Shown: positions 1 through 50,171 of the stretch, piece after piece
Layout: each line of letters starts with the position of its first letter
Position numbering within the stretch: position 1 is the first letter of the stretch
Assembly (NCBI GenBank): GCA_041659505.1
Contig: JBAZYF010000003.1
Location: 86,026-150,025, forward strand
DNA: 64,000 nt
Source: Parcubacteria group bacterium
GTDB lineage: Bacteria > Patescibacteriota > Minisyncoccia > Moranbacterales > UBA2206
Direction: 5' to 3'
The notes under the pieces: generated by a model
What the model was told of the DNA's origin: nothing
The model's input: the letters and a program-made list of their open reading frames with translations, nothing else
Databases searched by the model: none
Program-made: the position numbers and the translations under genes

Positions 1-342
1 TTGTATCGATTATGAACAAACATCAAATCCTCAACTATCCCTTTGAGAATTTTATTGTGCTTTTCATTCCAGCCTTTCAGCGCAATGCCCTCTCTTGCCA
101 ATTCTAAAATCGTTGCCATCTGGATGTGCAAATCGTTATTCTGCATTTGAAATTCCAATTGTTTTTTACGCTTCTGATTCATAGCCCTATGATTTTTTGG
201 ATACAAAAAAGGTCCTCCGTCGGCGGCACCGTTTCGGGCACCCAACACCCTTTCGAGTATTGACCCATGTGAACAGATACCGATCAGAAGACCGTTATTG
301 TTCACATGGGGTTTCATATATTTTGCCATGCCTACACCCGAA
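1..342 (-). CDS. hypothetical protein, 3' end cut off by the window edge. N-terminus is visible; the start is ATG at 182, 317 or 342
   Basis: Minus-strand frame is open from 342 through coordinate 1. It reads MPSGVGMAKYMKPHVNNNGLLIGICSHGS...MNQKRKKQLEFQMQNNDLHIQMATILELAREGIALKGWNEKHNKILKGIVEDLMFVHNRY. Segment 183-340 is GC-richer than 1-182, so the true start may be the ATG at 182. Confidence 0.25.
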
Positions 343-482
343 GGCATAAGTTTAGGCTGTATTGTAAATTTATTCTAGCTTTTTAAGTCGTGTTGGTCAA
401 TTTTCGGAAAGTTTTAGACACTCTTTTTAAATTTAGGCATACTAAAAACTAACTCCTATAAAAATAAGTTTTTATGCGTAAC

Positions 483-2231
483 TTACGTTTCCGAATACTT
501 TTTCCCATTAAGAAATCTGATTTCCTTTGTGAAATTAGCGACTCTATGATCATCTATTTCTAGGTTTAGCATTTTTTCTCGCTCTTCGTTTTCAATTTTA
601 TCCCTATTTAAGGTAAGAATGTATTGGAAGTCTTGTGACTCTTTTTTGGCTAAATAATTTAGACTTTTTATTAATGAATCCTGATCAACATCAAAAATAT
701 TATCATGAACCAAAAAATGAGGATGTCTCACTTGGGTGTATTCGTTAAATAATAATGCTAAATCATAAATAAAAACTTTCGTTCTGTCCACACTATGGCT
801 ACCATCATCATCTATCCTCATTTCAAATGATAAGACCTTTTTACTCTTCCCGCTTGTAACTGTCTTAATATCAAAGGATGCTTCGTTGCTATCCATTATA
901 TATTCATGGATACTTAAAATTGTTATATTAAAACTATCTATTATTTTTTTAGCATCAAATATCAAAGCATCCAGCTCCTGGAAATATTTGTCTTTCTCTA
1001 GTTTTAAATCCTTTAATTCTTTTTCGGTGTTTTCATAGGCCGCATACTTACTTTGAATATTTGCATAAGACTCTCTTTTTTGGTGATAAATAGCAAAACC
1101 GTTTTTCACATCCTTCAAAACACCCTTTTGATCAATAATTTCTAATTTATTTAGTCTGCTGTCTTCAAGAGCCTGAAGTTTTCTTGCAGTAACATTTAAT
1201 TCATCGCTTATAGATTTAATTTTTTCATTAAACAATTTTCTTTGGAATTCATCAATTTTTTGTTTAAAATTCACGACTTCTTCAATGGATTTGGAGACAA
1301 TATCACCAAGGCCTGATTTGAATTGGTTATAAATAATTTCAATATCTTTTTCTTTAATAGCCTCCAGTGCTGGGAAGGTTCTCATTTTTCTCAATTGATA
1401 TCTCAGGGCAGTCTGATGAGAGCGTAAATCATCTATCTCTATTTGCATTTTAGCCAAATCATCCTGCTGTAGCGCATATGCGTCATTGGTCTTGAAACTT
1501 TCAAGCGCTGTGTCTATTTTCTTTAAATCATCATTGAGGGAGTTGAGTGTAGCCTTGACATCGCCGACTTTTTTTGTTCCGTTTTCAGTTAAGGATTTTC
1601 TCAGTGCTGTTCTGTGGACACTAGTTTTTTCAATTTCTTTGAATTTTTTTTGTATCTTATTGATAAGCGAGACATCCAGACCAAAAATGAACGCACTTGG
1701 TTTTATGGCAGGAGGTATGGTCTTTTGTGAATTACTCTCATAACACATCATAATATCCTTAAACTCAGATCCTTCTTCTCTTAAGAACGGTCCCAGAAAT
1801 TCACGAAAACTAATATCTACACTTTCGGAAGTTTCCAAAAATAATATCCTCCCCAAATATTGGCTAGCATCATCCAAATTAGAAAAATCGGTTGTTTTAC
1901 CATCTTTTATAATTGTTGGATTTTCTGGTTTTCCTTTTGTTCTAATTATTCTAAGATTTTGAGAATTAATTTCAAGGTCTAAAATTATTTGAGTATCATC
2001 AGAAAATTTATCAAGTGGGATCTTCATAACCCGACTATTGGAACTTGCCTTTAAAAGACAAAAATTCACAAATTCTATACTTAAAGATTTGCCCACTCCA
2101 TTAGTTTTTTTCCCTTTTCTCACATTGTCTGTTTCAACTTTTTCACCCATGATAAGATTTATCCCATCTTGAAATTCGATGGGTTCAAATATTTCTGGTG
2201 AAGAATGAAGTTTCAATAATTTTATTCTCAT
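483..2231 (-). CDS. ABC/SMC-type ATPase with a long coiled-coil insertion (DUF2326/ABC-3C-like or Lamassu LmuB-like)
   Basis: N-terminal P-loop (GEKVETDNVRKGKKTNGVGKS). Central ~250 aa are heptad-rich coiled coil. C-terminal FLVHDNIFDVDQD is Walker B/D-loop-like. 4-nt ATGA overlap with the upstream small gene. Confidence 0.55.
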   Translation of the reverse strand: MRIKLLKLHSSPEIFEPIEFQDGINLIMGEKVETDNVRKGKKTNGVGKSLSIEFVNFCLLKASSNSRVMKIPLDKFSDDTQIILDLEINSQNLRIIRTKGKPENPTIIKDGKTTDFSNLDDASQYLGRILFLETSESVDISFREFLGPFLREEGSEFKDIMMCYESNSQKTIPPAIKPSAFIFGLDVSLINKIQKKFKEIEKTSVHRTALRKSLTENGTKKVGDVKATLNSLNDDLKKIDTALESFKTNDAYALQQDDLAKMQIEIDDLRSHQTALRYQLRKMRTFPALEAIKEKDIEIIYNQFKSGLGDIVSKSIEEVVNFKQKIDEFQRKLFNEKIKSISDELNVTARKLQALEDSRLNKLEIIDQKGVLKDVKNGFAIYHQKRESYANIQSKYAAYENTEKELKDLKLEKDKYFQELDALIFDAKKIIDSFNITILSIHEYIMDSNEASFDIKTVTSGKSKKVLSFEMRIDDDGSHSVDRTKVFIYDLALLFNEYTQVRHPHFLVHDNIFDVDQDSLIKSLNYLAKKESQDFQYILTLNRDKIENEEREKMLNLEIDDHRVANFTKEIRFLNGKKYSET

Positions 2232-2503
2232 ACTTTATAAATATAAGGATCTGTAAAATTTATAATACCCGCGGTATATAAAAATATTAACGATAGCATT
2301 ATTTGCCGATAATGAATTATTTTTAATTCCTTTTTTAATTTTTCAGTTACTTCAAAAATACTTACCTTATCATCATCCTTGCTCTTTAAAATTTTTAAAA
2401 TTAAATACCCAATATAAATTGGCGTTGTTTTAATTTCTTCATCTTTTGTAATCAAATTATTCTTCTTCATTTGGAAAAATACTACATTTGGGAATCTCTC
2501 CAA
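2228..2503 (-). CDS. small alpha-helical 'middle component' protein (91 aa) of a three-gene ATPase cassette
   Basis: Short ORF translationally coupled to the ATPase (ATGA overlap) and overlapping the upstream gene. Position and size fit the MC/LmuC-type adaptor. No recognizable catalytic motif. Confidence 0.4.
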   Translation of the reverse strand: MERFPNVVFFQMKKNNLITKDEEIKTTPIYIGYLILKILKSKDDDKVSIFEVTEKLKKELKIIHYRQIMLSLIFLYTAGIINFTDPYIYKV

Positions 2504-3386
2504 TTAAATAATATCTTATTGCACTATGCGCATATTTCTTGCCACTACTTTCAAGCTTATTCTCAAGATAATCTGCCATCTTATCTAACGCGGTCATAGG
2601 GTCACCATTATTCTCTCTTAAAAACCTACGACTAGTTTCCTTCAAAAACGCCACCTTTTTTGCTACCATTATCTTATCTGGACCAATTGCCTGTTCTGCT
2701 TCTTTTTGTGCACTTGCATACATTGCGCTATTTACTATTTCACTTTTAATTTGTACACAATAGCTACTAAAACGTTCGAGTTTTTTATCAGGATCAGGCA
2801 TGGTATTTTCAAACCCTTCATTGATAAAGTCCGCATTATCAGATACATAACAGATAAGATCCATTACGGTTTCAACTTCTGTCGCGTTGGAATTAATATT
2901 GGGAAGATTAAAGATTCTTTGCCGATCATTTTTGCTTAATTCAATAGCCTTTCTAACTATTTGTTCCAATCCCCAATGTTCCTTTTTTATTCCATCTCCA
3001 TTTCCATTTAATTCAATAATTTTTTGATGGGGCTTGCCCATTAAATTATCCCTTGTCACAAATACCCACTTATCAAACTGGTATTTATCTTTCCATTTTT
3101 CCAAAAATTTATCATAATCACCAAGCTCCTCTGATTTTTTAGGAATAGGATTTGAAATCTTCTTTGAAGTTATGCTATTATCGTATTTCTCTGATTCTGG
3201 ACCATACACGGCAAAAAAACATTTCTCATCTATACTGTACCCATCATTACCAAGATCATGTTGCATTTTAGGGGTTTGCAAATCCGGATAACAACAAATT
3301 AGGATATCCCACAAAATTTGCTGAAATTCCTTTCCTGTTTTTCTTGTCAATCGATCTCTTATTATTTCCTCAGAAGAATTAGCCAT
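2457..3386 (-). CDS. putative effector of the three-gene cassette with a PD-(D/E)xK-like motif
   Basis: First gene of the co-directional triad. Motif GNDGYSIDEKCFFAVYG resembles a restriction-endonuclease-fold D...(D/E)xK core. No other recognized family. Confidence 0.4.
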   Translation of the reverse strand: MANSSEEIIRDRLTRKTGKEFQQILWDILICCYPDLQTPKMQHDLGNDGYSIDEKCFFAVYGPESEKYDNSITSKKISNPIPKKSEELGDYDKFLEKWKDKYQFDKWVFVTRDNLMGKPHQKIIELNGNGDGIKKEHWGLEQIVRKAIELSKNDRQRIFNLPNINSNATEVETVMDLICYVSDNADFINEGFENTMPDPDKKLERFSSYCVQIKSEIVNSAMYASAQKEAEQAIGPDKIMVAKKVAFLKETSRRFLRENNGDPMTALDKMADYLENKLESSGKKYAHSAIRYYLIGEIPKCSIFPNEEE

Positions 3387-3494
3387 TTTTTATTTCGATA
3401 CTCAAGATTATATTTCATCTCAACTTTCTTGTTAAAATAATTATACCACATACTATCAGATTTGGTATCATTCATTCATTTTTAGCAAAATATC

Positions 3495-4001
3495 CTAACT
3501 AGAGAGATTCTTATTCTCCAAGATATTCCTAATATTTTGTGATAATTCTGAGAAGTTTCCGCCAACACTAATATGTTCTACTGGCAGACCAATTGCTTTG
3601 TATAATTCATCAATAAAATTATCCCGCTTTTTACGTTGTGCGCTATTATGCGATTTTCCATCTAGCTCAATAGCAAGCAATGGTTTTGTTGTGGCATAAT
3701 TACACACAAGGAAATCAACATGGCGTGACTTGATTTTGCCACGAAGACCCCAGTGACTATTGCCAGATATATTCTTCTTGTTCACATCAATAAAGTCCTC
3801 AATGCGAACCTTAGACAATACGATATAAACTTCTCCAAGTGCTTTTTGCAGATTAACGAATAATGCTTGCTCTGATTCATTCATTACCCTGTCCTTCTTT
3901 TGATATGAAGACAAACTCGTTAGTCTTTCCTTTTTCTCAATAAATGCCTTAGCGAGAGCAACAGCAACGATGAAAATGATTAATATAATTGTCCAAAGCA
4001 T
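3495..4001 (-). CDS. membrane-anchored DUF2726-like (PD-(D/E)xK, NERD-related) nuclease-domain protein
   Basis: N-terminal TM helix (LWTIILIIFIVAVALA). Core HVDFLVCN...LLAIELDGKSH matches the DUF2726 pattern (D...E.DGxxH). Confidence 0.5.
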   Translation of the reverse strand: MLWTIILIIFIVAVALAKAFIEKKERLTSLSSYQKKDRVMNESEQALFVNLQKALGEVYIVLSKVRIEDFIDVNKKNISGNSHWGLRGKIKSRHVDFLVCNYATTKPLLAIELDGKSHNSAQRKKRDNFIDELYKAIGLPVEHISVGGNFSELSQNIRNILENKNLSS

Positions 4002-4083
4002 AGTTTTGTTTTTATTGAATTATGTTTGATGAAATTAGAAAACAAATTAGACTTATCGTTTATTTTGCAATAATTGAAAAAAA

Positions 4084-5373
4084 TTACTTCAAATCAATCC
4101 TGTTGTTCTTTTTTAAATATTTTTCAATCATTTCATTTTCGAGTCTTTTTGCCAACCGCTCACCATAGCACCACCCTAATTGCTGACAAAAATCTTTAAT
4201 CAATTCTATTCTTTTCTCTTTTAAATCTTGCACCATGATATTCCTATTCCAGTCCAATTCATAATCTAATGATTTTTTTATTTTTTCGGATGTGAAATTT
4301 TCATCTCCCTTATACAGAAAATTATTATCCGTTTCTGAGAGTACAAACGAGAGTTCTATGTAACCCCAATAACCCAAATCTTCATAAAATTTATATGCAA
4401 ATTCAATGAGCAAATCTATTCTGGCTATTAAATGATAGAAGCCATAATACCCAAGTTTGTCTTCCCTTATATTATCAAAATTCATTTCACCCTCCCTTTC
4501 AAAACTTTGTTTTAACAATTCTATATCCTGCATGAATATTTCTCCATAGTATAAAAGTCCGAAATCATTGATTTCTGTATAATTTTTTTCGTTATATTTA
4601 ATAACAACACCATCATTTATAACCCTTCTTTTATCTATGAATCTAGGAAATCCACCTGAACTAAAATAATCATTAATTTGAAGCTCGCCGAGAAAATCAA
4701 ACAAATGATCTGGATTCGTTAGCACTTGATTTGGATAAATTGGGATCGATGAGAAATATCCACTTCCAAAAGGCTTTCTACTCCTAAAGGTTGCTATCAG
4801 TGTATTTTCCTCATTGGGAACATAAATTTTATCATTGTGTCTTTGCGTGGCCGAGGTTAATAAATTTTTTTTCAAATTATCTGATTTATCTCTCCTATTT
4901 CTCAACCACTCCAATTGCTCCATCGTGGCTAAACTTTCAGGGGTTTTAGTGTCATTAATTCTCACATATGCTCTAGTATTTCCCCTGATAGCATGGGGCG
5001 TTTCATTACTCGGATGAATTCTTATTACAACCAGCGCCTTCGTGCAATCATCGTTCTTGCAAACTTTTACTTCTGGAAATATTATTGGGTAAATATTATC
5101 AATGATTATTCTTGTTACTTTTTCAGAAATGCCCTCTTTATTTTCAAGGCCTTCAACTGGGAGCAATGGAACACCGTCATCATCTTTTACACCAACAATA
5201 ACTAAGCCACCAAAAGTATTTGCGAAAGCGCTCAGTGTCATTGCGAGTTTTTTATTGTCAGCATTAAAGTCTTCCTTGTAATCCAAATTAACATTTTCCC
5301 TGATTTTCTCATTACAAAAAGCAACAACATCCTCATAGGAAATATCTTCAATTTTTTTATTATATAAAATCAT
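4084..5373 (-). CDS. Schlafen/AlbA_2 (divergent AAA, PF04326-like) domain protein
   Basis: N-terminus EDISYEDVVAFCNEKIRENVNLDYKEDF...LSAFANTFGGLVIVGVKDDDG is the canonical AlbA_2 signature (LEfK...AFAN..GG.l.iGv.D.G). Confidence 0.6.
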   Translation of the reverse strand: MILYNKKIEDISYEDVVAFCNEKIRENVNLDYKEDFNADNKKLAMTLSAFANTFGGLVIVGVKDDDGVPLLPVEGLENKEGISEKVTRIIIDNIYPIIFPEVKVCKNDDCTKALVVIRIHPSNETPHAIRGNTRAYVRINDTKTPESLATMEQLEWLRNRRDKSDNLKKNLLTSATQRHNDKIYVPNEENTLIATFRSRKPFGSGYFSSIPIYPNQVLTNPDHLFDFLGELQINDYFSSGGFPRFIDKRRVINDGVVIKYNEKNYTEINDFGLLYYGEIFMQDIELLKQSFEREGEMNFDNIREDKLGYYGFYHLIARIDLLIEFAYKFYEDLGYWGYIELSFVLSETDNNFLYKGDENFTSEKIKKSLDYELDWNRNIMVQDLKEKRIELIKDFCQQLGWCYGERLAKRLENEMIEKYLKKNNRIDLK

Positions 5374-5519
5374 AGCTTTAATTAATTTTTATCTTTAGCA
5401 TAATTCTCAATAGCAAGCTCAGCCAATCCATAAAGATTATCCCTGATTTCCAAAACTTCTTCATCAGCGATATTTTCGTCGTTTAATATTTTCTTGACTT
5501 CTTCAATACTTAACATTCC

Positions 5520-7013
5520 TTATACTGATTTTAATACTTTCCAAATTTCAACCATAGCCAAGGTATCAAGATGGCAATAGTCCTTGAGTGCCTGCACTTT
5601 CATATTTTTTTCATCCTCAGAATATTCATCCGACACAATACGATTCCATGTATCTGACGCGGCACCACCCTCTTGAATATGCATATCCTTATATGAAAGA
5701 TGAGGAACAAGTGCCGGCAAAACATACTTTATTGAAGCGCTTCCTTTAAACTCTGGATGATCATACATTGTTGTATTTCCGTAAAATGGAATCATCAAGT
5801 CTACAACGCGATTATTAACACTTTGCATAAAATCCCGATATTCAGGCAGACGCTTTCCAATTTCTTCATTTCTCTTTTTTTCAAAACTCTGATTCCAAAC
5901 AACAACACTTCCTGTTTTCGGGATATGCTTTTCCAATGCTTTTGCGAAACTTTCATCAGGACAACCTTGATCAGTATAAATAAAATCATAATGTTCCAAT
6001 TCGCTCTCGCGTGAGTCAATCACATGCAGTGAAAATTGAAAAGTTATTTGCTGATATGGACTGTACCCACTATATCTCGGCAAGGCTGATGGATATGTTT
6101 CATAGTCAAGAAATGACAATGGGTATTTCATCGTTCCTAAAAATTCAGCAATGCTTTTTTTATCAATATATTCTTTGCCGGATTTGGCCGTTTCCACTTG
6201 CCTTTTCTGATTATCTGAAAGTGGGAAATCATCCGGCACATCGTGAATATTGAAAATATGACTATCAACCAACTCTGCTAATTTTTTTCCATTGATTCTT
6301 AAAATTGCGTGAACTGGATATTCCGGAAGATCAGAATTTGAATACCAAGCTGTTGTACAATGCGAGTTTTTCCCTTTCAAAATACAATCGCAATGCCCTT
6401 TCGGTTCAGCTTCACTAGATAACAATTCATAGGCACCCTCCATTTTTTGCTTTATGTCATCCAGCTTCTCATTCACTTGGCTAGTCGAATCTTCTATAAA
6501 AAATAACTTTTCCAAGTTAATTTCGCCAAGGCGGACATATTTTTTATTAAGCCTGATCAAATTGAAAGTTCCCATCTCAATGCCCAAATCATTCAGGACA
6601 TTCTTTTGAAAAGCCATATCTATCAAATAATCCTCGGTTTTTCTTCCTCCGTTTTCTTCCGAAGCTGTCGATGACTTCACTTCATATAGATCATAGACAT
6701 TTGTATCCAGATTGAAAACAAAAATATCAGAGACTGCGAGATATTTTTCGGTTGCAAAAACAGGCTGATAAATTACAGGTGTCTTTTCTTCCATAAGCTT
6801 CCTTGTAAGCTCTGTATCATCACGAGATTCCACTAGCACGCCGCCCGAGAAAAGGCCGCGCGCAAGCTCGTCAATTTGATTGCCAGTATCAATAATATTC
6901 AGCTCAAAAGAAGAAAGTGCTTTTTTCTTATATACCTCTGGATTGTGAATTTTTAGCCAAGCATTTTTTGCACAATCGAGACATATCAGAAAGTTTGTTT
7001 TTGATAATTTCAT
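5520..7013 (-). CDS. DUF2779-like protein (RecB/Cas4-like nuclease N-terminus)
   Basis: N-terminus LSKTNFLICLDCAKNAWLKIHNPEV resembles the DUF2779 start (LSKS.F..G.QC.K.LWL..H.PE). Later CDC...C cysteine cluster. Confidence 0.4.
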   Translation of the reverse strand: MKLSKTNFLICLDCAKNAWLKIHNPEVYKKKALSSFELNIIDTGNQIDELARGLFSGGVLVESRDDTELTRKLMEEKTPVIYQPVFATEKYLAVSDIFVFNLDTNVYDLYEVKSSTASEENGGRKTEDYLIDMAFQKNVLNDLGIEMGTFNLIRLNKKYVRLGEINLEKLFFIEDSTSQVNEKLDDIKQKMEGAYELLSSEAEPKGHCDCILKGKNSHCTTAWYSNSDLPEYPVHAILRINGKKLAELVDSHIFNIHDVPDDFPLSDNQKRQVETAKSGKEYIDKKSIAEFLGTMKYPLSFLDYETYPSALPRYSGYSPYQQITFQFSLHVIDSRESELEHYDFIYTDQGCPDESFAKALEKHIPKTGSVVVWNQSFEKKRNEEIGKRLPEYRDFMQSVNNRVVDLMIPFYGNTTMYDHPEFKGSASIKYVLPALVPHLSYKDMHIQEGGAASDTWNRIVSDEYSEDEKNMKVQALKDYCHLDTLAMVEIWKVLKSV

Positions 7014-7106
7014 GCAATTTTTTTAATCAATCGCCAAAAAACTATTATTTAAAATCATATTTGCCATTTTGCTTTTCGGGTTTAGTCCAATTTTTTCGCA
7101 AAACTT

Positions 7107-9293
7107 TTATTTTATCATTCGATTGTAGTGTGCCTCATGTCCAGAATTTTCAAATATTTTTTTAAATGCTTCTTTGAAAATTTGAGGATCAACTTCTTTT
7201 GTGTCAGAAATATTTATTCTATCAAAATGTGATTCTCTATTTATATATCTCAAAAAATAAGAGTATTTGCCATCTGTTAGATTTTCAATTGCTTTATCAT
7301 ATTTTTCATTATCAATAAAACCAAAAAAACATTCTAAAATATTTCTCATAGAATTAGCCAATAAACTATCAGGGGCGTTATCGTCTTTTATTATTTGCCA
7401 ATACTGTTGATAGTCATTTAATATCTCATCTTTACCCATTTCAGAAATTATAGATTTTTTTTCTCGATTCTTGGTAATTCTAAAAAGTTTTTCCCTGTCG
7501 TCTTTCTTGTTTTTCTCTGTGTATTTTATTAATTCGTGAAAAAGATATAAATTATGAGTTAAAATGAATACTTGCTTATAGTCATCATTAAAAAAGTTTT
7601 TTCTTATGAGCTGTGCAACATTAAAAACATACATATGCGACAAGCTAGAAATTGGATCATCAATAACAACTATTTTTTCAGTTGCTATATCATCATTATT
7701 TTCTTTGCCTTTGCATAATTCCAAAAAATACAGAAAACTAATTACTGTTTTTTCTCCCTCGCTCAATGTTTCAAATTTAGCAATATCTTCGTTTGGTCTT
7801 TGTAGTTTGTATGACTTTTCTCCAGCTGGAACAATAGAAAATCCATCTAATCCAAAAAATATTAATTCACTATTTATAGCCTCAATTGCATCTTGAATGT
7901 TTACCATTTCCTTTTGTGCGTCTTTTATTATCGTTCCTCGCTCTTCAATATTTTTGTTTAACTCTGAAATTTTAGTTTCAATATCTGATTTTTCTTTTTC
8001 AACTTTCACTTTTTGAGTGTTATAATTTTCTATTGTTTGATCATAATCCCACCGCATAATTTCCCAGAAGTCTTTAATGATCTGATTTCTTGTTTTTTGT
8101 TTGTTTTTTAGCTTTTCATTATGAGTTTTTATTTCATTAATAATTGTATCTAAAAAATCATTCAGTGCTTTTTGTTCTAAAATACTTAATTCTAAGGCAA
8201 TGACTACATTCGGACTTTTAATTTTATTGTTAATTTTTGACCAATTATTGTTCAATTTATCAATAAAATTTTTAAACAAAAGCTTAAATTTGGTTTCTTT
8301 GACCTTTATAAAATCAATTTGTAAAAGTTCATTTTCTAACTTTTTTGCATCCTGATATTCTCTAAAATATTCTTTGTCTAAATCTTCTAATTCTGTGATT
8401 TTTTGTTGGTAAGATACGTCAAAGTAATTTTGAATTTCTTGATATAAATCTTTAGTTATAGTTTTTTGCTGACAAAAAGGACAGATTTTATTTTCCTCTC
8501 GGGGTTCATTTATAAACTCTTTCCCTTTTTTCACCCAATCAGAATTGTTTAATTTCTCAATAAGATCCGCTACTTGTGAATTTTCATTTCCAATAATTAC
8601 TTCTTTGAAAATTTCCTTTTCTTCGGTTTTCCAAAAATCAAAAGTTACTTTTTTAACCAAATTTTCGTCATAAGTTTTGGCGCTTTTTCCTTGCGTTGCT
8701 TCTGCTTCTTTTTTTAAATCTTCTTTTGATTTTTCTGGTTTATTTGCTGGTTTTTGTAATCTTAAAAGATGATCAAATAAGTCTTTTTTGCTTCCCCTTT
8801 TTCCTTCCAAGCAAAATTCCAAAATTCTATCTCCACCCGAATATTTTGTTTTTATCTCCCAAGTTTTATCTTCTGTTGTATTTTGTAAATCAGCGACATT
8901 TTCTTGTTTTTTATTTAAGTCAAATTGAAATCCGGTTTTCAATTCATCGTTTTCAATTTGATTCTTTAGTTTATTTATCTCCTGAGTAGCTGTATCTATT
9001 TTTTCTTTTGCTTCTTTGTTTTCTGACTTCAGACTAAAAATACCTCTTTGTGTGTCCTGATAAAAATTATCACCAACAAATTTTTGATTATAAACTAACA
9101 CTTTTTCATTATTTAGTTCTGCAATTGAACAGCAAGAAAAACAAGCGTTATCTTTATCTTGAAGATAATTTGAAAGAGTTGTTTTTCCTGTCCCATTCAG
9201 TCCATAAATAAGATTGATTTTTTTATCAGTCTCCAAGATAGCGGGTGTTTCCCCATAACTTGCAGTATTTTTTATAGAAATCTTAGTGATCAT
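7107..9293 (-). CDS. AAA_13-family ABC ATPase (PrrC/RloC-like) with a coiled-coil insertion and CxxC hook-like motif
   Basis: Walker A GLNGTGKTT at the N-terminus. Long coiled coil with ICPFCQQK (zinc-hook-like CxxC) in the middle. Walker B/D-loop VVIDDPISSLS. C-terminal region carries R/H-rich motifs (RYINRESHFD, SGHEAHYNRM) compatible with a PrrC/RloC-type nuclease module. Confidence 0.55.
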   Translation of the reverse strand: MITKISIKNTASYGETPAILETDKKINLIYGLNGTGKTTLSNYLQDKDNACFSCCSIAELNNEKVLVYNQKFVGDNFYQDTQRGIFSLKSENKEAKEKIDTATQEINKLKNQIENDELKTGFQFDLNKKQENVADLQNTTEDKTWEIKTKYSGGDRILEFCLEGKRGSKKDLFDHLLRLQKPANKPEKSKEDLKKEAEATQGKSAKTYDENLVKKVTFDFWKTEEKEIFKEVIIGNENSQVADLIEKLNNSDWVKKGKEFINEPREENKICPFCQQKTITKDLYQEIQNYFDVSYQQKITELEDLDKEYFREYQDAKKLENELLQIDFIKVKETKFKLLFKNFIDKLNNNWSKINNKIKSPNVVIALELSILEQKALNDFLDTIINEIKTHNEKLKNKQKTRNQIIKDFWEIMRWDYDQTIENYNTQKVKVEKEKSDIETKISELNKNIEERGTIIKDAQKEMVNIQDAIEAINSELIFFGLDGFSIVPAGEKSYKLQRPNEDIAKFETLSEGEKTVISFLYFLELCKGKENNDDIATEKIVVIDDPISSLSHMYVFNVAQLIRKNFFNDDYKQVFILTHNLYLFHELIKYTEKNKKDDREKLFRITKNREKKSIISEMGKDEILNDYQQYWQIIKDDNAPDSLLANSMRNILECFFGFIDNEKYDKAIENLTDGKYSYFLRYINRESHFDRINISDTKEVDPQIFKEAFKKIFENSGHEAHYNRMIK

Positions 9294-9331
9294 AATTTAA
9301 AATATCAAATTTACTGGATATTTTTTTGATT

Positions 9332-10426
9332 TTATTTCCCCGATTTTCTTCTATTGCATTCTTTGCATAACATTTGGCAATTCTTTGCAACAGTTTTTCC
9401 GCCCTCATGCCAAGGATTTATATGATCAGCTTCCATTTCTTCAATTTCAAAATGTTTCTTGCATTTTTTACAAATGCCTTTTTGTCGCTCATAGGCTTCC
9501 AGCTTCATTTTCTCGTTAAACGCTCGAATATTGAGATATTTTTCTTCACCAGTTAGCACATACCAGTACACGCCTTTTTTGCTGTCAACGTCTTCGTCGG
9601 CAATCAATCGCGCAACTTCACTCTCCAATTCTTCTGCATCTAATTTAGTATTCTTAAATTTACCATATAATTCTCCCCACTCGATTCCTTTCATCATCTT
9701 ACGATATTTTGGAAAAACCATTCGCACCCACTCAATCACTTTTTGAAAATACGCCCATAATTCCTCAGCAGTTGCATCATGTTGATGTTTCCCCATATAG
9801 TCTTCAATTTTATCATTACTAATCCAGCGAAGTACTGTTTCCAAATATTCTTGACGATTTAATGCTCCCCCCATATAGTCATTAGCCGAAAGGGATGCTG
9901 GAGCATTGCTCTTACTAAAATATCGCTTAGCATCAGTTACCCAAGTCCCCGAGTAGATAGCATTTAATAATTCTTGATTCGTTAACTTTTCACCCGCAGT
10001 ATTAATAACCTTAAACCATGCCAATTTCTCATCATATGTACCTTCGCAAAAATAAACCATGAGCTTATAATCCAAAATCTTCGCTTTTTCTTTTTCAGTT
10101 AGATTGTCGAAATACATTTGATATTCACGATTTGTAATGTTAAAGTTACCAGCTACAAAATTACAAATGCTAACTGTGCGCTGTTGTCCATCAAGAATTT
10201 CAAAGCTTCCATCATTATTCTTTACCCAATACATTGCATTTAGCGGAAAACCTCCAATCACTGAATTTATTACAGCAATTTGTTGTTCGGGTTTATAAAT
10301 AAATTCACGCTGATACTTCGGACGAATATCTAATTTTCCGCCATATCCAACCACACCCTCTTCATCGCTATCCTGATATCCAGCAAAAAGTTCACGCACT
10401 GGAATTTCATTTAGTTCAATTTCCAT
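9332..10426 (-). CDS. DUF262 (ParB/GmrSD N-terminal-like) domain fused to a C-terminal HNH endonuclease
   Basis: N-terminal ILDGQQRT motif typical of DUF262. C-terminal CKKCKKHF..ADHINPWHEGGKT..NCQMLCKECNRRK is an HNH zinc-finger nuclease motif. Confidence 0.65.
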   Translation of the reverse strand: MEIELNEIPVRELFAGYQDSDEEGVVGYGGKLDIRPKYQREFIYKPEQQIAVINSVIGGFPLNAMYWVKNNDGSFEILDGQQRTVSICNFVAGNFNITNREYQMYFDNLTEKEKAKILDYKLMVYFCEGTYDEKLAWFKVINTAGEKLTNQELLNAIYSGTWVTDAKRYFSKSNAPASLSANDYMGGALNRQEYLETVLRWISNDKIEDYMGKHQHDATAEELWAYFQKVIEWVRMVFPKYRKMMKGIEWGELYGKFKNTKLDAEELESEVARLIADEDVDSKKGVYWYVLTGEEKYLNIRAFNEKMKLEAYERQKGICKKCKKHFEIEEMEADHINPWHEGGKTVAKNCQMLCKECNRRKSGK

Positions 10427-10427
10427 A

Positions 10428-11486
10428 TTATTTTTTTCGTTTAATTAAAATTCGATTATATATTTTCCTACCTTCAATTAAAGTAAAACATTCGTAACCA
10501 ATCCATCTTGCAGAATTAGCAATGCCCAATATTTCAAACTGCGCTGGGCTATATTTATCAACAAAGGTAATCGGTACGCCCATTACACTCTCATAATCCA
10601 TTGGAATATCAGCAACTTTATCAACATTTATAACGTTGTAGTTATCGTATTTTGGAAATTCTCCCGGCGTATATTTCTTATATAACACTATTTTTTCATG
10701 ACGTTTTGTATTGTCGAGGTTTGTATACCACACAATTCTACCCATACTGAAAAACTTTGTACCATTTTCAATTTTTATTCTTGACTCTGTCTCAATATCA
10801 TAATCATTGGGAACCTGAAACCATTTTGTACCACCATTGTCGTAGCCGTGCCACAATTTATTTTCTTTGATGAAACCGAAAGTTTCTTTATAGGTTACTG
10901 CATTTTGGTCGCCAAGAATCAAAAACTTCTTGTTATATTCAATCAATTGCGCAACATATTCCCGAAACAATGAAAAAGGTGGATTAGTCACCACGATATC
11001 TGCTTGTTTTAAAAGTTCTATACTTTCTTCACTTCTAAAATCTCCATCGCCTTCCAACGGTGCCCATTCATTGTTTTTGTTTGCTTTGAGTTGTTCAGCA
11101 ATATCACGCAAATCAAACGCACCATCACCGTCGAGATCGCTAACTTCATTGATAATGAATTTATTGGCCGTTAATTTTGGACGACCCTTTGTTATGGGCA
11201 GTGTCTTATTATCTCCAAATAATCCAAGTTGAGTATTAGCAATTGGTGATGGTTTGTAACTTGTAGCGATAAGTTTCTTTAGACCCAAAGCATTAAAATT
11301 TGAGGCAAAATACTTAAAAAAGTTACTCTCGAAAGGATCGTCACAATTGCAATATACCACCTTGTCACGAAATTGTTCTTTATAGTGTTTTAATTCCTTT
11401 TCAATATCAACAAGCTGAGTATAAAACTCATCTTTTTTTGCCTTGTTGGCTTTATGCAAATTACTGTTTAATGACTTATTTTCCAT
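10428..11486 (-). CDS. N6-adenine DNA methyltransferase, gamma-class (N6_Mtase-like)
   Basis: Motif X-like DEFYTQ followed by catalytic motif IV VVTNPPF. 1-nt gap to the downstream gene. Whether it is an orphan or R-M-linked MTase is unresolved. Confidence 0.65.
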   Translation of the reverse strand: MENKSLNSNLHKANKAKKDEFYTQLVDIEKELKHYKEQFRDKVVYCNCDDPFESNFFKYFASNFNALGLKKLIATSYKPSPIANTQLGLFGDNKTLPITKGRPKLTANKFIINEVSDLDGDGAFDLRDIAEQLKANKNNEWAPLEGDGDFRSEESIELLKQADIVVTNPPFSLFREYVAQLIEYNKKFLILGDQNAVTYKETFGFIKENKLWHGYDNGGTKWFQVPNDYDIETESRIKIENGTKFFSMGRIVWYTNLDNTKRHEKIVLYKKYTPGEFPKYDNYNVINVDKVADIPMDYESVMGVPITFVDKYSPAQFEILGIANSARWIGYECFTLIEGRKIYNRILIKRKK

Positions 11487-11490
11487 GAAA

Positions 11491-12402
11491 TTACTTATTC
11501 AAATCATAACTTTGCTTGATTAAAATAAAAGCTGATTCAAGGTCTTTTTCATCTTTTAATTTCACCTCATAATCTCCATTGCCCCAGTGTCCCTTTTTAG
11601 GTTTTGTGAAGTCTGTAGATATTTCAAACAAATCAACCAATTCACCACTTTTTACATTAAGTGTGATTCGTATTTCATCCTTATGAATAATCAGGTCGGC
11701 AAAGTTGGTTGCTGTTTTGTAGGCTATATAAAATTTCTTTGGCTCCTCTTTTATTTCCTCGTCGATGGAAATAATTTTTTCGCGCAATTTGTAAAAAAGA
11801 TCTTTTGTTTTTTGATCGGTTTTTTTCAGGTGGTCATCAATCGAATAATTTTTTTGTAGAACCTCGTGCTTTTCTTTTTGATTTTTAGACTTTTTGATAA
11901 TTCCAGAAGTAGAAATTTTTATTTTCTGATAGTTTTCCGGCTCAAGAAAAAGAAGATCGTTTTCATAGATCCTGTATCTCAAAAGTTCGATGTTAATTGG
12001 TAAAATATCTGCCGTGTCTATATCAAATTTGTTATAATTTTCCGCGACACAAATTACCCGCGGAGAATCCCAATCAATATCAATTTTGATATTTTTGTTT
12101 TTGCATAAAAATTCAAAATCAGCTTTGTGATCCAATAGCCAGCGCAAATATGAAAGACCTTGATTGATAACGCTATCGTTTTGATTTTTCTTATACTCAA
12201 TAATGCAGGGTGAGCCATTTTTATCTATACCCAAGGTATCAATCCTGCCCCCGAAACTAGTCGAATATTCATGAGCTAAAAAATCAATATTCAAAATTTC
12301 TTCCAGATTATTTTCAAATAATTTCTGCAAGTCCTTTTCTAGGCCTAAGTCTTTCGTTACTAATTTTGATACCTTTGGATTTTGAATCTTAAATAATGCC
12401 AT
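11491..12402 (-). CDS. NucS/DUF91-like PD-(D/E)xK endonuclease (candidate restriction endonuclease)
   Basis: GGRIDTLGID...GSPCIIEYKK gives a D...E.K nuclease core in a DUF91/NucS-like arrangement. Immediately upstream of the MTase with a 4-nt spacing. Confidence 0.45.
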   Translation of the reverse strand: MALFKIQNPKVSKLVTKDLGLEKDLQKLFENNLEEILNIDFLAHEYSTSFGGRIDTLGIDKNGSPCIIEYKKNQNDSVINQGLSYLRWLLDHKADFEFLCKNKNIKIDIDWDSPRVICVAENYNKFDIDTADILPINIELLRYRIYENDLLFLEPENYQKIKISTSGIIKKSKNQKEKHEVLQKNYSIDDHLKKTDQKTKDLFYKLREKIISIDEEIKEEPKKFYIAYKTATNFADLIIHKDEIRITLNVKSGELVDLFEISTDFTKPKKGHWGNGDYEVKLKDEKDLESAFILIKQSYDLNK

Positions 12403-30800: not shown

Positions 30801-31052
30801 TCAAAGCTTACCTCGAATCCGGATTGATCCAGTGGGTGCGATTTCCTGAACTTGTTGCGACTGGATTGGTATTTGTTTTTTTGAAGCGATTACTACTGGT
30901 CCAGTCTTAATAACGGGCTTCATGGCCACCACCGGTGTTTTTTTTGACTCCGCTGGCGACGATTTAATGTTGAAATATTTGCCAGCTAACAATCCGCTAG
31001 CAAAAATCAACGCCACAACAAAGAATATCAACGCTTTTTTCATTATAATCAC
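30801..31052 (-). CDS. small secreted/membrane-anchored protein
   Basis: Signal-peptide-like N-terminus. Confidence 0.3.
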   Translation of the reverse strand: MIIMKKALIFFVVALIFASGLLAGKYFNIKSSPAESKKTPVVAMKPVIKTGPVVIASKKQIPIQSQQVQEIAPTGSIRIRGKL

Positions 31053-31212
31053 CTCCCTATAAATAGATTTTTAAGCTTCAATAAAATCAACCGTAACTGA
31101 CAATAATAGCATAATTATTTATATTTGTCAAATGCACCTAAATTAACTCTAAAAACATGAAAAAGACAGGGCTAGGCGTCTTTGACGCTCTAGCCCTTTT
31201 TCCAATGTTGGA

Positions 31213-31440
31213 TCAGTAAACATAAACTTCAATATCCGCTTCATCCAGCAAAACTGCCTTAAGCATGCCGGACAACTGTTCCTCCAATCGCTCATGAGAC
31301 AGATATTTGTCCTCTATCGACTTCCGGATGACCATCTCCTCGACATCCTGCTGTTCAAAAAACTTTCTGATCAATGTCTCATTTCCGTTCGCCTTATAGA
31401 CGCGAACCTGCCCGATTTCTCTCGTTACGTGAATAATCAT
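31213..31440 (-). CDS. hypothetical small protein
   Basis: ORF only. Confidence 0.3.
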   Translation of the reverse strand: MIIHVTREIGQVRVYKANGNETLIRKFFEQQDVEEMVIRKSIEDKYLSHERLEEQLSGMLKAVLLDEADIEVYVY

Positions 31441-31758
31441 TGAATTCCCTCCTGTTGTTTGTGATCCATCTTAGAGAAATTAAAGAACAAAAAACCCGCT
31501 GTTGGCGGGTTTTGGTTTATTTCGAAAGGATAACTTCATCGAACCATTTTCCTCTTCGCTTCAAGCCAAAATTCGCCAACATAAAGTCGGGACCCGGATC
31601 CGGAACATGTTGACCAAATATTGGTTTTGACTTGGCGATTTAGGCTCATAAAACTATCAAAATTATTTATAATAAAATATTACCACGCGACAATATTTTG
31701 TCAATAAAATATCTTACACCATTACTGAATCCTGTTCACTGATCAGTGTTCTCTGTTA

Positions 31759-31855
31759 TTCATTCCACCACCGCCTTAATCCTCCTCACACCCGCCGAAG
31801 AGCTTTCTTCTTTTTGGATGCGGAATTTGCCTTTGATTTCGGCGGTATTTTTGAT
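31759..31855. repeat. 97-bp direct repeat, copy 1: duplicate of the alaS 3' end
   Basis: Identical to 33315-33411, which is the alaS stop codon plus its last ~31 codons. Confidence 0.85.
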
Positions 31856-31884
31856 TGTTGGCCATTTCAATCAAACTTTTCTTG

Positions 31885-33285: not shown

Positions 33286-33314
33286 TTTTTTTATTTTAAT
33301 TTATTATTCACTTT

Positions 33315-49996: not shown

Positions 49997-50171
49997 AAAA
50001 TCTACTTTCCATTCTTTTCTAAAAAAAAGGGAGGGTGGCAATTTGCCCCCGCCCTGTCGGCTCAAGTCTCTCCGACTTGCCTGCCTGCCTTTTGGAGGGA
50101 AATATTTATTTCTAGTCCAGCTTTGGAAAAAAGCTGATTAGAGCTACAAGGCGAATTCCGCTTATCACCTT

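What the first reader, a model, noticed from the sequence alone, without database searches (positions are those of the whole stretch)
3495..7013. Membrane-anchored DUF2726 nuclease + Schlafen/AlbA_2 + DUF2779 trio: uncharacterized candidate module
Three consecutive genes inside the island. Each carries a domain (DUF2726, AlbA_2, DUF2779) repeatedly seen in defense contexts. I know of no characterized system with this combination. The TM anchor on the DUF2726 protein suggests a membrane-proximal nuclease or sensor. They may instead be three independent single-gene systems.
Basis: inference. Interest (0 to 1): 0.55.

Follow-up and report, generated by a model that had tools for sequence, protein, structure and literature searches.

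The report
Three independent defence-island genes, not a trio
The three neighbouring genes are real, but each moves between genomes on its own: the middle one belongs to the recently described bacterial Schlafen family of tRNA-cutting antiphage proteins, and the other two are uncharacterised nucleases that sit beside it in a defence island.

Summary
Three minus-strand ORFs lie at the stated coordinates in a low-GC defence island of a Parcubacteria (CPR) genome. They match DUF2726 (with an N-terminal TM helix), SLFN_AlbA_2 and DUF2779.

- 0 of 71 AlbA_2-family clusters have the other two genes nearby.
- 0 of 80 DUF2779 loci have either other gene nearby.
- 0 of 5 close DUF2726 loci have either other gene nearby.

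DNA homology breaks at the gene borders. The DUF2726 cassette starts one base after the AlbA_2 stop codon and recurs behind unrelated genes. DUF2779 alone is shared with three other CPR genomes. Only DUF2779, an unlisted 44-aa gene and AlbA_2 are shared, with one related island.

The AlbA_2 protein is a prokaryotic Schlafen (pSlfn). Its invariant E26-x4-D31-x-K33 aligns with the CbCash catalytic triad. Its C-terminal domain has no Pfam or PDB match, always occurs in this ~400-aa architecture, and diverges much faster than the nuclease domain. This is what a sensor domain would show.

DUF2779 is an intact fusion of a Cas4-like [4Fe-4S] nuclease and a DEDDy exonuclease. It usually lies just downstream of another gene, and P-loop NTPases are over-represented among those genes.

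Verdict: new members of known kinds, of modest interest.

The parts
3495..4001 (-). DUF2726 gene: a 168-aa Vsr/DUF559-clan PD-(D/E)xK-type endonuclease with an N-terminal TM helix (residues about 2-19)
   Evidence: Pfam DUF2726, E 6.5e-28. The family alignment A6 has invariant D96, E112, D114, H118, R126 and D127, and a hydrophobic N-terminus in all 22 sequences. Clan assignment follows PMC3424549.
4002..4083 (-). Upstream leader that travels with the DUF2726 gene and marks the cassette border
   Evidence: blastn: window 4083..3543 matches L174, L175, L177 and L178 at 81-83% nt identity. The match starts 1 nt after the AlbA_2 stop codon, and the upstream genes in those loci are unrelated to each other.
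4897..5373 (-). Schlafen (AlbA_2) nuclease domain of the pSlfn protein, residues 1-159, with the E26-x4-D31-x-K33 triad
   Evidence: Pfam SLFN_AlbA_2, E 1e-17. E26, D31, Y32 and K33 are invariant in A1. The family profile hits CbCash 9ylu at E 1.5e-6, aligning E26/D31/K33 with E17/D22/K24. Foldseek hits SLFN13 5yd0 (3.7e-4) and SLFN11.
4084..4896 (-). C-terminal domain of the pSlfn protein, residues 160-429; uncharacterised and presumed to be the sensor or regulatory domain
   Evidence: No Pfam or PDB sequence match. AF2 gives pLDDT 78 and pTM 0.81. Foldseek returns only weak TBP hits at E 0.2-1. An HMM finds 892 cluster representatives; nearly all of the 150 best listed are about 400 aa with the domain at about 155-405. 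Identity to L001 is 45-72% here, against 90-100% in the nuclease domain.
5382..5516 (-). Unlisted 44-aa gene (MLSIEEVKKILNDENIADEEVLEIRDNLYGLAELAIENYAKDKN), a member of a small-protein family
   Evidence: Homologues at 64-95% identity lie on other contigs. Differences by codon position are 116/62/176, and conservation is confined to the ORF. jackhmmer joins 25 small ORFs in the fetched loci. There is no Pfam or PHROG match.
5520..7013 (-). DUF2779 gene: 497 aa, an N-terminal Cas4-like PD-(D/E)xK nuclease with four Cys fused to a C-terminal DEDDy 3'-5' exonuclease (RNase H-like fold)
   Evidence: Pfam DUF2779, E 1.9e-38; RNase_H_2 weak. Conservation over 71 sequences: D96, E111, K113 and Q136 at 100%; C14, C208, C210 and C219 at 96-97%; D303, E305, E378 and Y479 at 100%; D483 at 99%. 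Domain assignment follows PMC13621843 and PMC3985635.
7107..9293 (-). Context: AAA_13 / PDC-S06 P-loop ATPase directly upstream of DUF2779. It is not part of the claimed trio but is a possible partner of DUF2779.
   Evidence: Pfam AAA_13, E 5e-115; PADLOC PDC-S06, E 4e-230. The same MTase-REase-AAA_13-DUF2779 order occurs in L095, with homology ending at the DUF2779 stop.

Best explanation
Window 3495-7013 is a run of separately mobile single-gene cassettes packed into one defence island of a Parcubacteria genome. It is not a three-gene system.

(1) The AlbA_2 gene is a self-contained prokaryotic Schlafen (pSlfn) sensor-effector. The N-terminal Schlafen nuclease has an intact E-x4-D-x-K site. 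The C-terminal domain is family-specific and diverges fast. By analogy with RorSlfn5 and CbCash (inferred, not shown here), the C-terminal domain detects an infection cue and releases the nuclease. The nuclease then cuts tRNAs and halts translation in the infected cell.

(2) DUF2779 is a stand-alone dual nuclease: a Cas4-like [4Fe-4S] PD-(D/E)xK domain plus a DEDDy 3'-5' exonuclease. Both active sites are intact. It spreads horizontally as a single gene and usually sits directly behind another same-strand gene. Its biological role is unknown.

(3) DUF2726 is a Vsr/DUF559-clan endonuclease on an N-terminal membrane anchor. The positive-inside rule predicts that the catalytic domain is cytoplasmic (inferred). 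It carries its own 82-nt leader and recurs behind unrelated genes.

(4) A 44-aa gene between DUF2779 and AlbA_2 belongs to a small-protein family scattered through such islands.
For: Gene-border homology breaks
- Window versus L001 share only 7062..4163 (DUF2779, the 44-aa gene and AlbA_2).
- Window versus L095 share 11486..5529, ending at the DUF2779 stop.
- Window versus L094, L096 and L097 share only the DUF2779 gene.
- The DUF2726 cassette 4083..3543 is shared with L174, L175, L177 and L178, behind unrelated upstream genes.

Co-occurrence
- 0 of 80 DUF2779 loci have an AlbA_2 or DUF2726 neighbour, including loci at 77-87% identity.
- 69 of 71 AlbA_2 clusters lack DUF2779, and all 71 lack DUF2726.
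- Neighbours of both families are heterogeneous.

pSlfn assignment
- E26, D31 and K33 are invariant and align with the CbCash catalytic residues E17, D22 and K24 at E 1.5e-6.
- Foldseek hits SLFN13 and SLFN11.
- The C-terminal domain has 892 cluster representatives at E <= 0.001. Nearly all of the 150 best listed have the same two-domain architecture.
- Against L001 the N-terminal domain is 90-100% identical and the C-terminal domain 45-72%. Perez Taboada et al. report the same pattern for pSlfn5 sensor domains (PMC13056530).
- Weickert et al. describe Schlafen proteins with a C-terminal domain of unknown function, associated with restriction-modification (PMC13462974).

DUF2779 active sites are conserved over 71 sequences.
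Against: - DUF2779, the 44-aa gene and AlbA_2 are packed with 3-nt and 8-nt spacers. They are shared as one block with L001.
- A distant AlbA_2 (33% identity) lies 870 bp from a DUF2779 (38% identity) in L010/L011. A facultative pairing is therefore not excluded.
- No terminator-like site was found between the genes, so co-transcription is likely.
- No activity, trigger or phenotype was measured for any gene.
- The DUF2726 context sample is small: 5 loci from 3 proteins.
- My neighbour detection used single-sequence phmmer with the window's proteins. Very divergent DUF2726/DUF559-type neighbours would be missed.
Confidence: 0.75

Rival explanations
1. DUF2779, the 44-aa protein and the pSlfn form a functional operon, a subset of the proposed trio. 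A DNA nuclease and a tRNase would cooperate, with the small protein acting as adaptor or regulator.
For: - The spacers are 3 nt and 8 nt.
- The 2.9-kb block is shared as a unit with L001-L003, between different flanks.
- AlbA_2 and DUF2779 are near each other again at 33% and 38% identity in L010/L011, in reversed order.
- Members of the 44-aa family also lie directly after an 86%-identical DUF2779 in L181, and directly after AlbA_2-family genes in L054, L061 and L080.
Against: - 0 of 80 DUF2779 loci carry an AlbA_2 gene, including five at 79-87% identity.
- 69 of 71 AlbA_2 clusters lack DUF2779.
- L001 shares a distal flank with the window (404..43), so it may be the same island inherited vertically rather than an independent case.
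- Two DUF2779 genes in 466 kb of AlbA_2 flanks is not significant against a rough background of one per Mb (Poisson P = 0.08; the background rate is my assumption).
- Homologues of the 44-aa gene also occur without either partner, in L179 and L180.
Confidence: 0.12
2. The full trio DUF2726 + AlbA_2 + DUF2779 is one defence system.
For: The genes are adjacent and share a strand within a defence island. All three carry nuclease-type domains.
Against: - The combination was found in no other locus.
- The DUF2726 cassette border falls exactly at the AlbA_2 stop codon, and the cassette carries its own leader.
- L001 keeps DUF2779, the 44-aa gene and AlbA_2 but has a Dcm methylase and a HATPase_c_3 gene where the window has DUF2726.
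Confidence: 0.03
3. DUF2779 works with the gene upstream of it. It would be a plug-in dual nuclease for diverse P-loop NTPases, here the AAA_13/PDC-S06 ATPase at 7107-9293, rather than a partner of AlbA_2.
For: - 61 of 70 upstream genes are on the same strand, and 39 of those end within 30 nt of the DUF2779 start.
- Among upstream neighbours of at least 250 aa, 12 of 32 carry a Walker A motif, against 73 of 511 for all genes of that size in the same loci (Fisher P = 6e-4).
- Pfam on the neighbours finds ResIII, SF1 helicases, AAA_13, AAA_21, AAA_15, SMC_N, FtsK, HerA-like and UvrD domains.
- A NACHT-HEPN protein overlaps the DUF2779 start on an Aliarcobacter plasmid.
- AAA_13 followed by DUF2779 is conserved in L095.
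- The shared DUF2779 homology starts only 3-18 nt before its ATG, so the gene has no leader of its own.
Against: - No single NTPase family dominates; AAA_13 accounts for only 2 of 53.
- Many upstream neighbours are not NTPases (DsbA/thioredoxin, sigma-70, RhuM).
- The Walker A regular expression is crude, and NTPases are common in defence islands anyway.
- The L095 block also includes the RM genes, so it may simply be island synteny.
- PDC-S06 is a single-gene entry in PADLOC.
Confidence: 0.2
4. DUF2779 and/or DUF2726 are not defence genes. DUF2779 would be a DNA repair or processing nuclease. DUF2726 would be a selfish or mobile-element-maintenance endonuclease, homing-like or plasmid-borne.
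For: - The DUF2779 homologue MMSYN1_0389 is quasi-essential in JCVI-syn3.0 (PMC13621843).
- Some DUF2779 neighbours are housekeeping genes.
- DUF2726 homologues occur on 242 plasmid records, 185 of them conjugative.
- The Vsr/DUF559/DUF2726 group includes Vsr repair and homing endonucleases (PMC3424549).
- The DUF2726 cassette inserts between unrelated genes with sharp borders.
Against: - Both genes here lie in a low-GC island full of defence genes.
- The close homologues of both sit next to RM and ATPase genes.
- DUF2779 at 75-87% identity across CPR lineages points to horizontal transfer, not a vertically inherited core gene.
Confidence: 0.2

Closest known systems
Prokaryotic Schlafen defence proteins (pSlfn1-55; RorSlfn5, EcoSlfn7): Perez Taboada et al., Nat Microbiol 2026 (PMC13056530)
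   Same: - An N-terminal Schlafen nuclease with the Ex4(E/D)xK motif fused to a C-terminal non-catalytic domain in a single polypeptide.
- Located in a defence island.
- The C-terminal domain diverges much faster than the nuclease domain (against their pSlfn5 observation).
- The paper lists a TBP-like fusion class (1.5%) and 17% of fusions with unannotated domains.
   Different: - The C-terminal domain here is not Ig-like, HisKinase, HTH or DUF262. It has no Pfam or PDB match and only non-significant TBP hits.
- The host is a CPR bacterium.
- No trigger, tRNA cleavage or phage phenotype is known for this subfamily.
- I could not check which pSlfn number it would fall under.
CbCash, CRISPR-associated Schlafen: Weickert et al., Nat Commun 2026 (PMC13462974; PDB 9ylu)
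   Same: - It is the best solved-structure sequence match of the family profile (E 1.5e-6).
- The catalytic residues E17, D22 and K24 align with E26, D31 and K33.
- That paper's Cluster 4 (Schlafen with a C-terminal domain of unknown function, RM-associated) fits this gene's architecture and its RM-rich island.
   Different: - There is no Csx15/CARF-like cA4 sensor, and no type III CRISPR genes are nearby.
- Activation by a cyclic oligoadenylate is not expected.
DUF2779 / MMSYN1_0389 lineage of Cas4-related nucleases (PMC13621843); RNase H-like family F.17 (PMC3985635)
   Same: - A two-domain fusion of a Cas4-like PD-(D/E)xK nuclease and a DEDD(y) exonuclease.
- D-ExK and the acidic DEDD residues are conserved.
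   Different: - This clade keeps all four Cas4 cysteines (96-97% conserved), whereas MMSYN1_0389 keeps only two.
- It lies in a horizontally transferred island rather than behaving as a quasi-essential core gene.
- No cas1 or cas2 genes are nearby.
Vsr / DUF559 / DUF2726 clan of small PD-(D/E)xK endonucleases (PMC3424549)
   Same: The conserved core matches the clan..HVDF..(x)..IELDG..H... Weak co-hits to MTES_1575 also occur.
   Different: - It has an N-terminal membrane anchor that is conserved across the subfamily.
- No biochemical function is known.
- In other loci the gene is followed by a conserved 50-54-aa ORF, which the window lacks.

Membership tests
Prokaryotic Schlafen (pSlfn) antiphage nucleases | Schlafen/AlbA_2 nuclease fold domain | tested here: met
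   Pfam SLFN_AlbA_2, E 1e-17. Foldseek SLFN13 5yd0 at 3.7e-4 and SLFN11 9erd. Profile versus CbCash at E 1.5e-6.
Prokaryotic Schlafen (pSlfn) antiphage nucleases | Catalytic E-x4-(E/D)-x-K motif | tested here: met
   E26, D31 and K33 are invariant in 14 family members. They align column for column with the CbCash residues E17, D22 and K24, which are required for tRNA cleavage (PMC13462974).
Prokaryotic Schlafen (pSlfn) antiphage nucleases | Fusion to a non-catalytic (sensor) domain in one polypeptide | tested here: met
   The 270-aa C-terminal domain is found essentially only in about 400-aa AlbA_2 fusions: 892 cluster representatives at E <= 0.001, with nearly all of the 150 best listed showing this architecture. 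It diverges faster than the nuclease domain. A sensing role is inferred, not tested.
Prokaryotic Schlafen (pSlfn) antiphage nucleases | Phage-triggered tRNA cleavage and protection from phage | not testable with these tools
   This needs expression, phage challenge and tRNA sequencing.
Prokaryotic Schlafen (pSlfn) antiphage nucleases | Location near known defence genes | tested here: met
   Within 8 kb lie PDC-S06, a type II RM pair, PDC-S18 and PDC-M68B/ABC-3C.
Multi-gene defence system (the proposed trio) | Conserved co-occurrence of the component genes across unrelated genomes | tested here: not met
   The trio appears in 0 of 71 AlbA_2 clusters, 0 of 80 DUF2779 loci and 0 of 5 DUF2726 loci. 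The homology borders fall between the genes.
Cas4 / RecB-like PD-(D/E)xK nucleases (N-terminal half of DUF2779) | D...ExK catalytic residues and a four-cysteine Fe-S cluster | tested here: met
   D96, E111 and K113 are 100% conserved. C14, C208, C210 and C219 are 96-97% conserved over 71 sequences. Metal or cluster binding was not measured.
Cas4 / RecB-like PD-(D/E)xK nucleases (N-terminal half of DUF2779) | Association with cas1/cas2 adaptation genes (CAS-Cas4) | tested here: not met
   No cas family appeared among the island genes or among the families reported for the 91 immediate neighbours of DUF2779 (which shows only the 25 commonest families). At best it is a 'solo' Cas4-like domain.
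DEDD 3'-5' exonucleases (C-terminal half of DUF2779) | Four acidic residues plus Y/H in the ExoI-III motifs | tested here: met
   D303, E305, E378 (E in place of D) and Y479 are 100% conserved, and D483 is 99% conserved. Weak RNase_H_2 hit. Placement in the exonuclease clade follows PMC3985635.
DUF2726 / Vsr-like endonucleases | Pfam DUF2726 core with conserved acidic and His residues | tested here: met
   E 6.5e-28. D96, E112, D114 and H118 are invariant.

The most novel reading that the evidence does not exclude
DUF2779 is a horizontally spreading "plug-in" dual nuclease, a Cas4-like endonuclease plus a DEDDy exonuclease. It would be co-transcribed behind, and work for, whichever P-loop NTPase sensor it lands after. 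Here that is the AAA_13/PDC-S06 ATPase; elsewhere it is a helicase, an SMC-like, HerA-like or NACHT protein. In this island it might additionally be coupled, through the 44-aa protein, to the pSlfn tRNase. That would make it a modular NTPase-nuclease defence architecture not yet described.
Probability: 0.12. Interest if true: 0.6.

Novelty: new member of a known kind. Interest (0 to 1): 0.3.

Why it matters
The result removes a false candidate "three-gene system" from the list of things to test.

- **Schlafen gene.** It places the AlbA_2 gene in the pSlfn tRNase family, which was characterised experimentally in 2026. This extends that family to CPR/Patescibacteria. The associated domain has at least 892 clusters at 50% identity, and its ligand is unknown.
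- **Domain mosaic.** The nuclease domain is nearly identical between two islands while the C-terminal domain is swapped. This is a natural example of the sensor exchange that was engineered in pSlfn5.
- **Other leads.** The DUF2779 cassette reaches 75-87% protein identity across CPR lineages and shows NTPase enrichment upstream. The unannotated small-protein family is a cheap lead for follow-up. Neither is a finding yet.

Tried and rejected
- **Integron-like cassette junctions.** I looked for a shared repeat or attC-like inverted repeat at the gene borders of the island. I found only chance-level AT-rich pairs. There is no tRNA in the island; the only one in the window is at 54788.
- **The 44-aa ORF as a conserved DNA or RNA element.** Rejected. 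Differences between homologues fall 116/62/176 by codon position, and conservation stops at the ORF ends.
- **C-terminal domain identity.**
  - Pfam at E <= 1: nothing.
  - PDB profile search: only noise, such as Mitoguardin and TNFSF18 at E >= 0.017.
  - Foldseek against PDB: only TBP hits at E 0.2-1 and probability <= 0.25, which is not significant.
- **A third DUF2779/AlbA_2 pair on a plasmid.** The "ATP-binding protein" next to DUF2779 on Aliarcobacter plasmid pM830MA is a NACHT/DUF4145 protein, not AlbA_2.
- **Phage origin.** The DUF2726 and DUF2779 proteins have no tblastn match in 50,697 phage records. DUF2726 has only a weak PHROG hit of unknown function.
- **A recurrent small PD-(D/E)xK partner for AlbA_2.** DUF559 lies directly upstream in L049, L071 and L072, and an Mrr_cat gene overlaps the downstream end in L004. 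This covers only about 5 of 71 clusters. I do not consider it above the defence-island background.
- **A contig-length coincidence.** P0022 lies on a 5192-nt contig and L098 is also 5192 nt. They are different contigs.
- **Promoter and terminator scan.** The counts did not clearly exceed the shuffled controls (16 promoter-like sites against 18.4 +/- 4.1 expected; 5 terminator-like against 1.9 +/- 1.4). None of the five terminator-like sites lies between the genes.

Full report
**1. What is there**

The window is a Parcubacteria (CPR) genome fragment. The AlbA_2 and DUF2726 proteins are found identically in an NCBI MAG of "Parcubacteria group bacterium".

Positions 1 to about 12500 form a low-GC island. 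Gene GC there is 24-37%, against 42-43% in the backbone. All island genes are on the minus strand.

In transcription order the island holds:
- DUF5655/PDC-S18 (11491-12402);
- an EcoRI-like MTase (10428-11486);
- a DUF262-HNH REase (9332-10426);
- an AAA_13/PDC-S06 ATPase (7107-9293);
- DUF2779 (5520-7013);
- a 44-aa ORF (5382-5516);
- the AlbA_2 protein (4084-5373);
- DUF2726 (3495-4001);
- an ABC-3C system: a 309-aa protein, MC6, and the DUF2326/PDC-M68B ATPase (483-3386).

The N-terminal hydrophobic helix of the DUF2726 protein is real and is conserved in all 22 aligned homologues. None of the three matches a PADLOC model.

It lies 3 nt after the DUF2779 stop and 8 nt before the AlbA_2 start.

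**2. Do the three genes belong together?**

I anchored on each gene in turn.

*AlbA_2.*
- The word-indexed search found 16 relatives.
- A metagenome scan added 80 loci, giving 91 loci in 71 clusters at 85% identity.
- DUF2726 is near none of them.
- DUF2779 is near only two clusters. One is L001-L003, where AlbA_2 is 71% identical and the order is DUF2779, 44-aa gene, AlbA_2. The other is L010/L011, where AlbA_2 is 33% identical and DUF2779 lies 870 bp downstream, so the order is reversed.
- The other contexts vary: an overlapping Mrr_cat gene (L004), a type III RM (L006), DUF5655 (L013) and plain housekeeping neighbours (L008).
- Pfam and PADLOC scans of 105 flanking proteins show no dominant partner. 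They show a mix of RM methylases, OLD, AIPR, DUF559 and housekeeping genes.

*DUF2779.*
- A scan of one genome per species returned 80 loci at 35-87% identity. They come from many CPR lineages plus Hyphomicrobium, Gammaproteobacteria and others.
- None has an AlbA_2-family or a DUF2726 gene within the flanks, which total 915 kb.

*DUF2726.*
- Close homologues at 80-86% identity were looked up in three clusters, giving five loci.
- They lie after a type III RM plus an SMC-like ATPase (L174), after a type IIG RM next to a serine recombinase (L175, L176), and after rpsB-tsf (L177).
- None has AlbA_2 or DUF2779 nearby.

*Breakpoints.* The DNA homology breakpoints are the most direct evidence.
- Window versus L001: only 7062..4163 is shared, which is DUF2779, the 44-aa gene and AlbA_2. 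A distal flank at 404..43 is also shared.
- Window versus L095: 11486..5529 is shared, running from the MTase to the last codons of DUF2779 and ending there.
- Window versus L094, L096 and L097: only the DUF2779 gene is shared (7031/7022/7016 to 5520/5527).
- Window versus L174, L175, L177 and L178: 4083..3543 is shared. This starts one base after the AlbA_2 stop codon and includes the 82-nt leader of DUF2726.

So DUF2726 is a cassette of its own, and DUF2779 is shared independently of both of its neighbours.

The only larger unit is DUF2779, the 44-aa gene and AlbA_2, and it is seen in a single related island. That island shares a distal flank with the window, so it may be the same island with cassettes exchanged rather than an independent occurrence.

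Two DUF2779 genes in 466 kb of AlbA_2 flanks is not significant against a rough one-per-Mb background (P = 0.08; the background rate is my assumption).

**3. What each gene is**

*AlbA_2 protein (429 aa).*
- The family alignment has invariant E26, D31, Y32 and K33.
- A profile of the family hits CbCash (PDB 9ylu) at E 1.5e-6. "EnvnLDYK" aligns on "ETRKVDLK", so E26/D31/K33 fall on E17/D22/K24.
- Those three residues form the Mg2+-dependent catalytic centre of CbCash, and mutating them abolishes tRNA cleavage (PMC13462974).
- Foldseek on the AF2 model (pLDDT 74.8) finds SLFN13, a RecG-related AlbA_2 domain and SLFN11.
- The C-terminal 270 residues have no Pfam or PDB sequence match.
- Modelled alone they fold with pTM 0.81 into two beta-sheet-plus-long-helix units. 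They give only weak, non-significant TBP hits.
- An HMM of this domain, run against 1.84 billion cluster representatives, finds 892 proteins at E <= 0.001. Nearly all of the 150 best listed are about 400 aa with the domain at about 155-405. It is therefore a dedicated partner of this Schlafen domain.
- Between the window and L001, residues 1-160 are 90-100% identical and residues 161-429 are 45-72% identical. Nucleotide identity drops from 97-100% to 61-66% at the domain boundary.
- This matches published pSlfn biology. These are single-polypeptide nuclease-sensor fusions in which the sensor determines phage specificity and diverges faster. The published classes include a TBP-like class (1.5%), and 17% have unannotated domains (PMC13056530). 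"Cluster 4" of Weickert et al. is Schlafen with a C-terminal domain of unknown function, associated with RM.
- The steps shown here are the fold, the triad, the architecture and the divergence pattern. The inferred steps are trigger sensing, tRNA cleavage and protection.

*DUF2779 (497 aa).*
- Over 71 sequences, D96, E111, K113 and Q136 are invariant. C14, C208, C210 and C219 are 96-97% conserved. D303, E305, E378 and Y479 are invariant, and D483 is 99% conserved.
- This fits a Cas4-like [4Fe-4S] PD-(D/E)xK nuclease fused to a DEDDy exonuclease. The same was proposed for the family from MMSYN1_0389 and from the RNase H-like survey.
- Its role is unknown.
- Identity of 75-87% between Parcubacteria, Moraniibacteriota, Falkowbacteria, Taylorbacteria and Saccharibacteria, confined to the gene itself, indicates horizontal transfer of a single gene.
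- It usually sits directly behind another gene. 61 of 70 upstream genes are on the same strand, and 39 of those end within 30 nt of its start.
- Walker A proteins are enriched among these upstream genes: 12 of 32 against 73 of 511 for proteins of at least 250 aa, P = 6e-4.
- The enrichment spans many NTPase families, including a NACHT-HEPN protein on an Aliarcobacter plasmid. This is a lead, not a result.

*DUF2726 (168 aa).*
- It belongs to the Vsr/DUF559 clan and has invariant D96, E112, D114 and H118.
- The TM helix is followed by a lysine-rich stretch (KAFIEKKERL). The positive-inside rule therefore predicts that the nuclease domain faces the cytoplasm (inference).
- Distant homologues occur on 242 plasmid records, mostly conjugative.
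- In the other loci the gene is followed by a conserved 50-54-aa ORF that the window lacks.

*The 44-aa gene.*
- Homologues at 64-95% identity lie in other contexts.
- The substitution pattern is that of a coding sequence.
- jackhmmer links it to 25 small ORFs in the fetched loci. These include three tandem copies after an 86%-identical DUF2779 (L181), copies directly after AlbA_2-family genes (L054, L061, L080), and the N-terminus of a Zn-ribbon/HTH_17 protein (L097).
- It has no Pfam or PHROG match.
- Its scattered links to both DUF2779 and AlbA_2 keep a small probability alive for the operon rival.

**4. Verdict**

- The AlbA_2 gene is a new member of a known kind: a pSlfn single-gene antiphage tRNase with an uncharacterised sensor domain.
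- DUF2779 and DUF2726 remain uncharacterised nucleases whose domain composition was already described.
- Interest is modest (0.3).
- The most novel reading still open is DUF2779 as a plug-in nuclease for upstream NTPases, possibly linked to the pSlfn through the small protein. I give it about 0.12.

Noticed in passing
window 5382-5516 (-); also L181 1373-1893, L054 6247-6444, L061 3103-3246, L080 3166-3309 and 5044-5196, L094 10492-10879, L097 11058-11696 and 11838-12254, L147 10633-10824, L179 6548-6694, L180 4465-4611: An unannotated family of 45-75-aa proteins with the consensus M(L/I)S..ai.eFk.IykkEFG.dISDeEA...g..Ll.lf.liykPi. They recur directly after, or between, defence-type genes, including DUF2779 and AlbA_2-family genes. 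In L097 the motif forms the N-terminus of a Zn-ribbon/HTH_17 protein. They show a coding substitution pattern and have no Pfam or PHROG match.
   Followed up: partly
window 4084-5373 versus L001 8001-9299: Sharp mosaic within the pSlfn gene. Nucleotide identity is 97-100% over the 3' end of DUF2779, the 44-aa gene and the Schlafen domain. It falls to 61-66% from the domain boundary (about window 4900) onwards. This looks like exchange of the C-terminal (sensor) domain by recombination.
   Followed up: partly
L094-L105, L112 (DUF2779 loci): DUF2779 proteins are 63-87% identical across different CPR lineages (Parcubacteria, Moraniibacteriota, Falkowbacteria, Taylorbacteria, Saccharibacteria) and one Oligoflexia MAG. 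In the three loci compared by DNA (L094, L096, L097) homology is confined to the gene itself, which implies recent horizontal transfer of a single gene.
   Followed up: partly
L094-L173, gene immediately upstream of DUF2779: P-loop (Walker A) proteins are about threefold over-represented directly upstream of DUF2779: 12 of 32 against 73 of 511 for proteins of at least 250 aa, Fisher P = 6e-4. 39 of 61 same-strand upstream genes end within 30 nt of its start.
   Followed up: partly
L069, L070, L071, L072, L077, L083: An AlbA_2-family gene is inserted between the large subunit and the B12-binding subunit genes of methylmalonyl-CoA mutase. In L071 and L072 (and also L049) a DUF559 endonuclease gene lies directly upstream of it.
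   Followed up: partly
L174 6519-6671, L175 6519-6671, L177 4351-4515; window 3387-3494: Close homologues of the DUF2726 gene are followed, 6 nt after the stop, by a conserved 50-54-aa ORF (MQYKFSEELR..ETADEWLDSLANLYLSF). The window has no such ORF. Homology to the other loci ends inside the 3' end of DUF2726, at about 3543.
   Followed up: partly
window 43-404 versus L001 13562-13942: The distal flank of the island is shared (74% nt) with the L001 island, but the cargo between it and the pSlfn gene differs. The window has DUF2726 plus ABC-3C; L001 has a Dcm methylase, a HATPase_c_3 gene and a 366-aa gene. This suggests one hot spot with cassette turnover. The ORF at 3-347 has no Pfam match.
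   Followed up: partly
window 483-3386 (-): An ABC-3C system: a 309-aa protein with no Pfam match (presumed effector), the MC6 middle component (overlapping ORFs) and a DUF2326/PDC-M68B ATPase.
   Followed up: no
window 31000-33300 and 50000-52500: Two further low-GC patches (GC 0.32-0.34) hold ORFs without Pfam matches: 466 aa at 31885-33285, 330 aa at 50172-51164 and 125 aa at 52105-52482. They lie next to alaS, a methyltransferase and parB.
   Followed up: partly
L182 (Aliarcobacter cryaerophilus plasmid pM830MA, record 60012-73461): A DUF2779 gene is embedded in a run made up of an SbcC-like AAA ATPase, a NACHT/DUF4145(HEPN) protein that overlaps its start by 14 nt, a 779-aa SF1-like protein, an AAA protein and a dGTPase. 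This is a candidate defence cluster on a plasmid.
   Followed up: no
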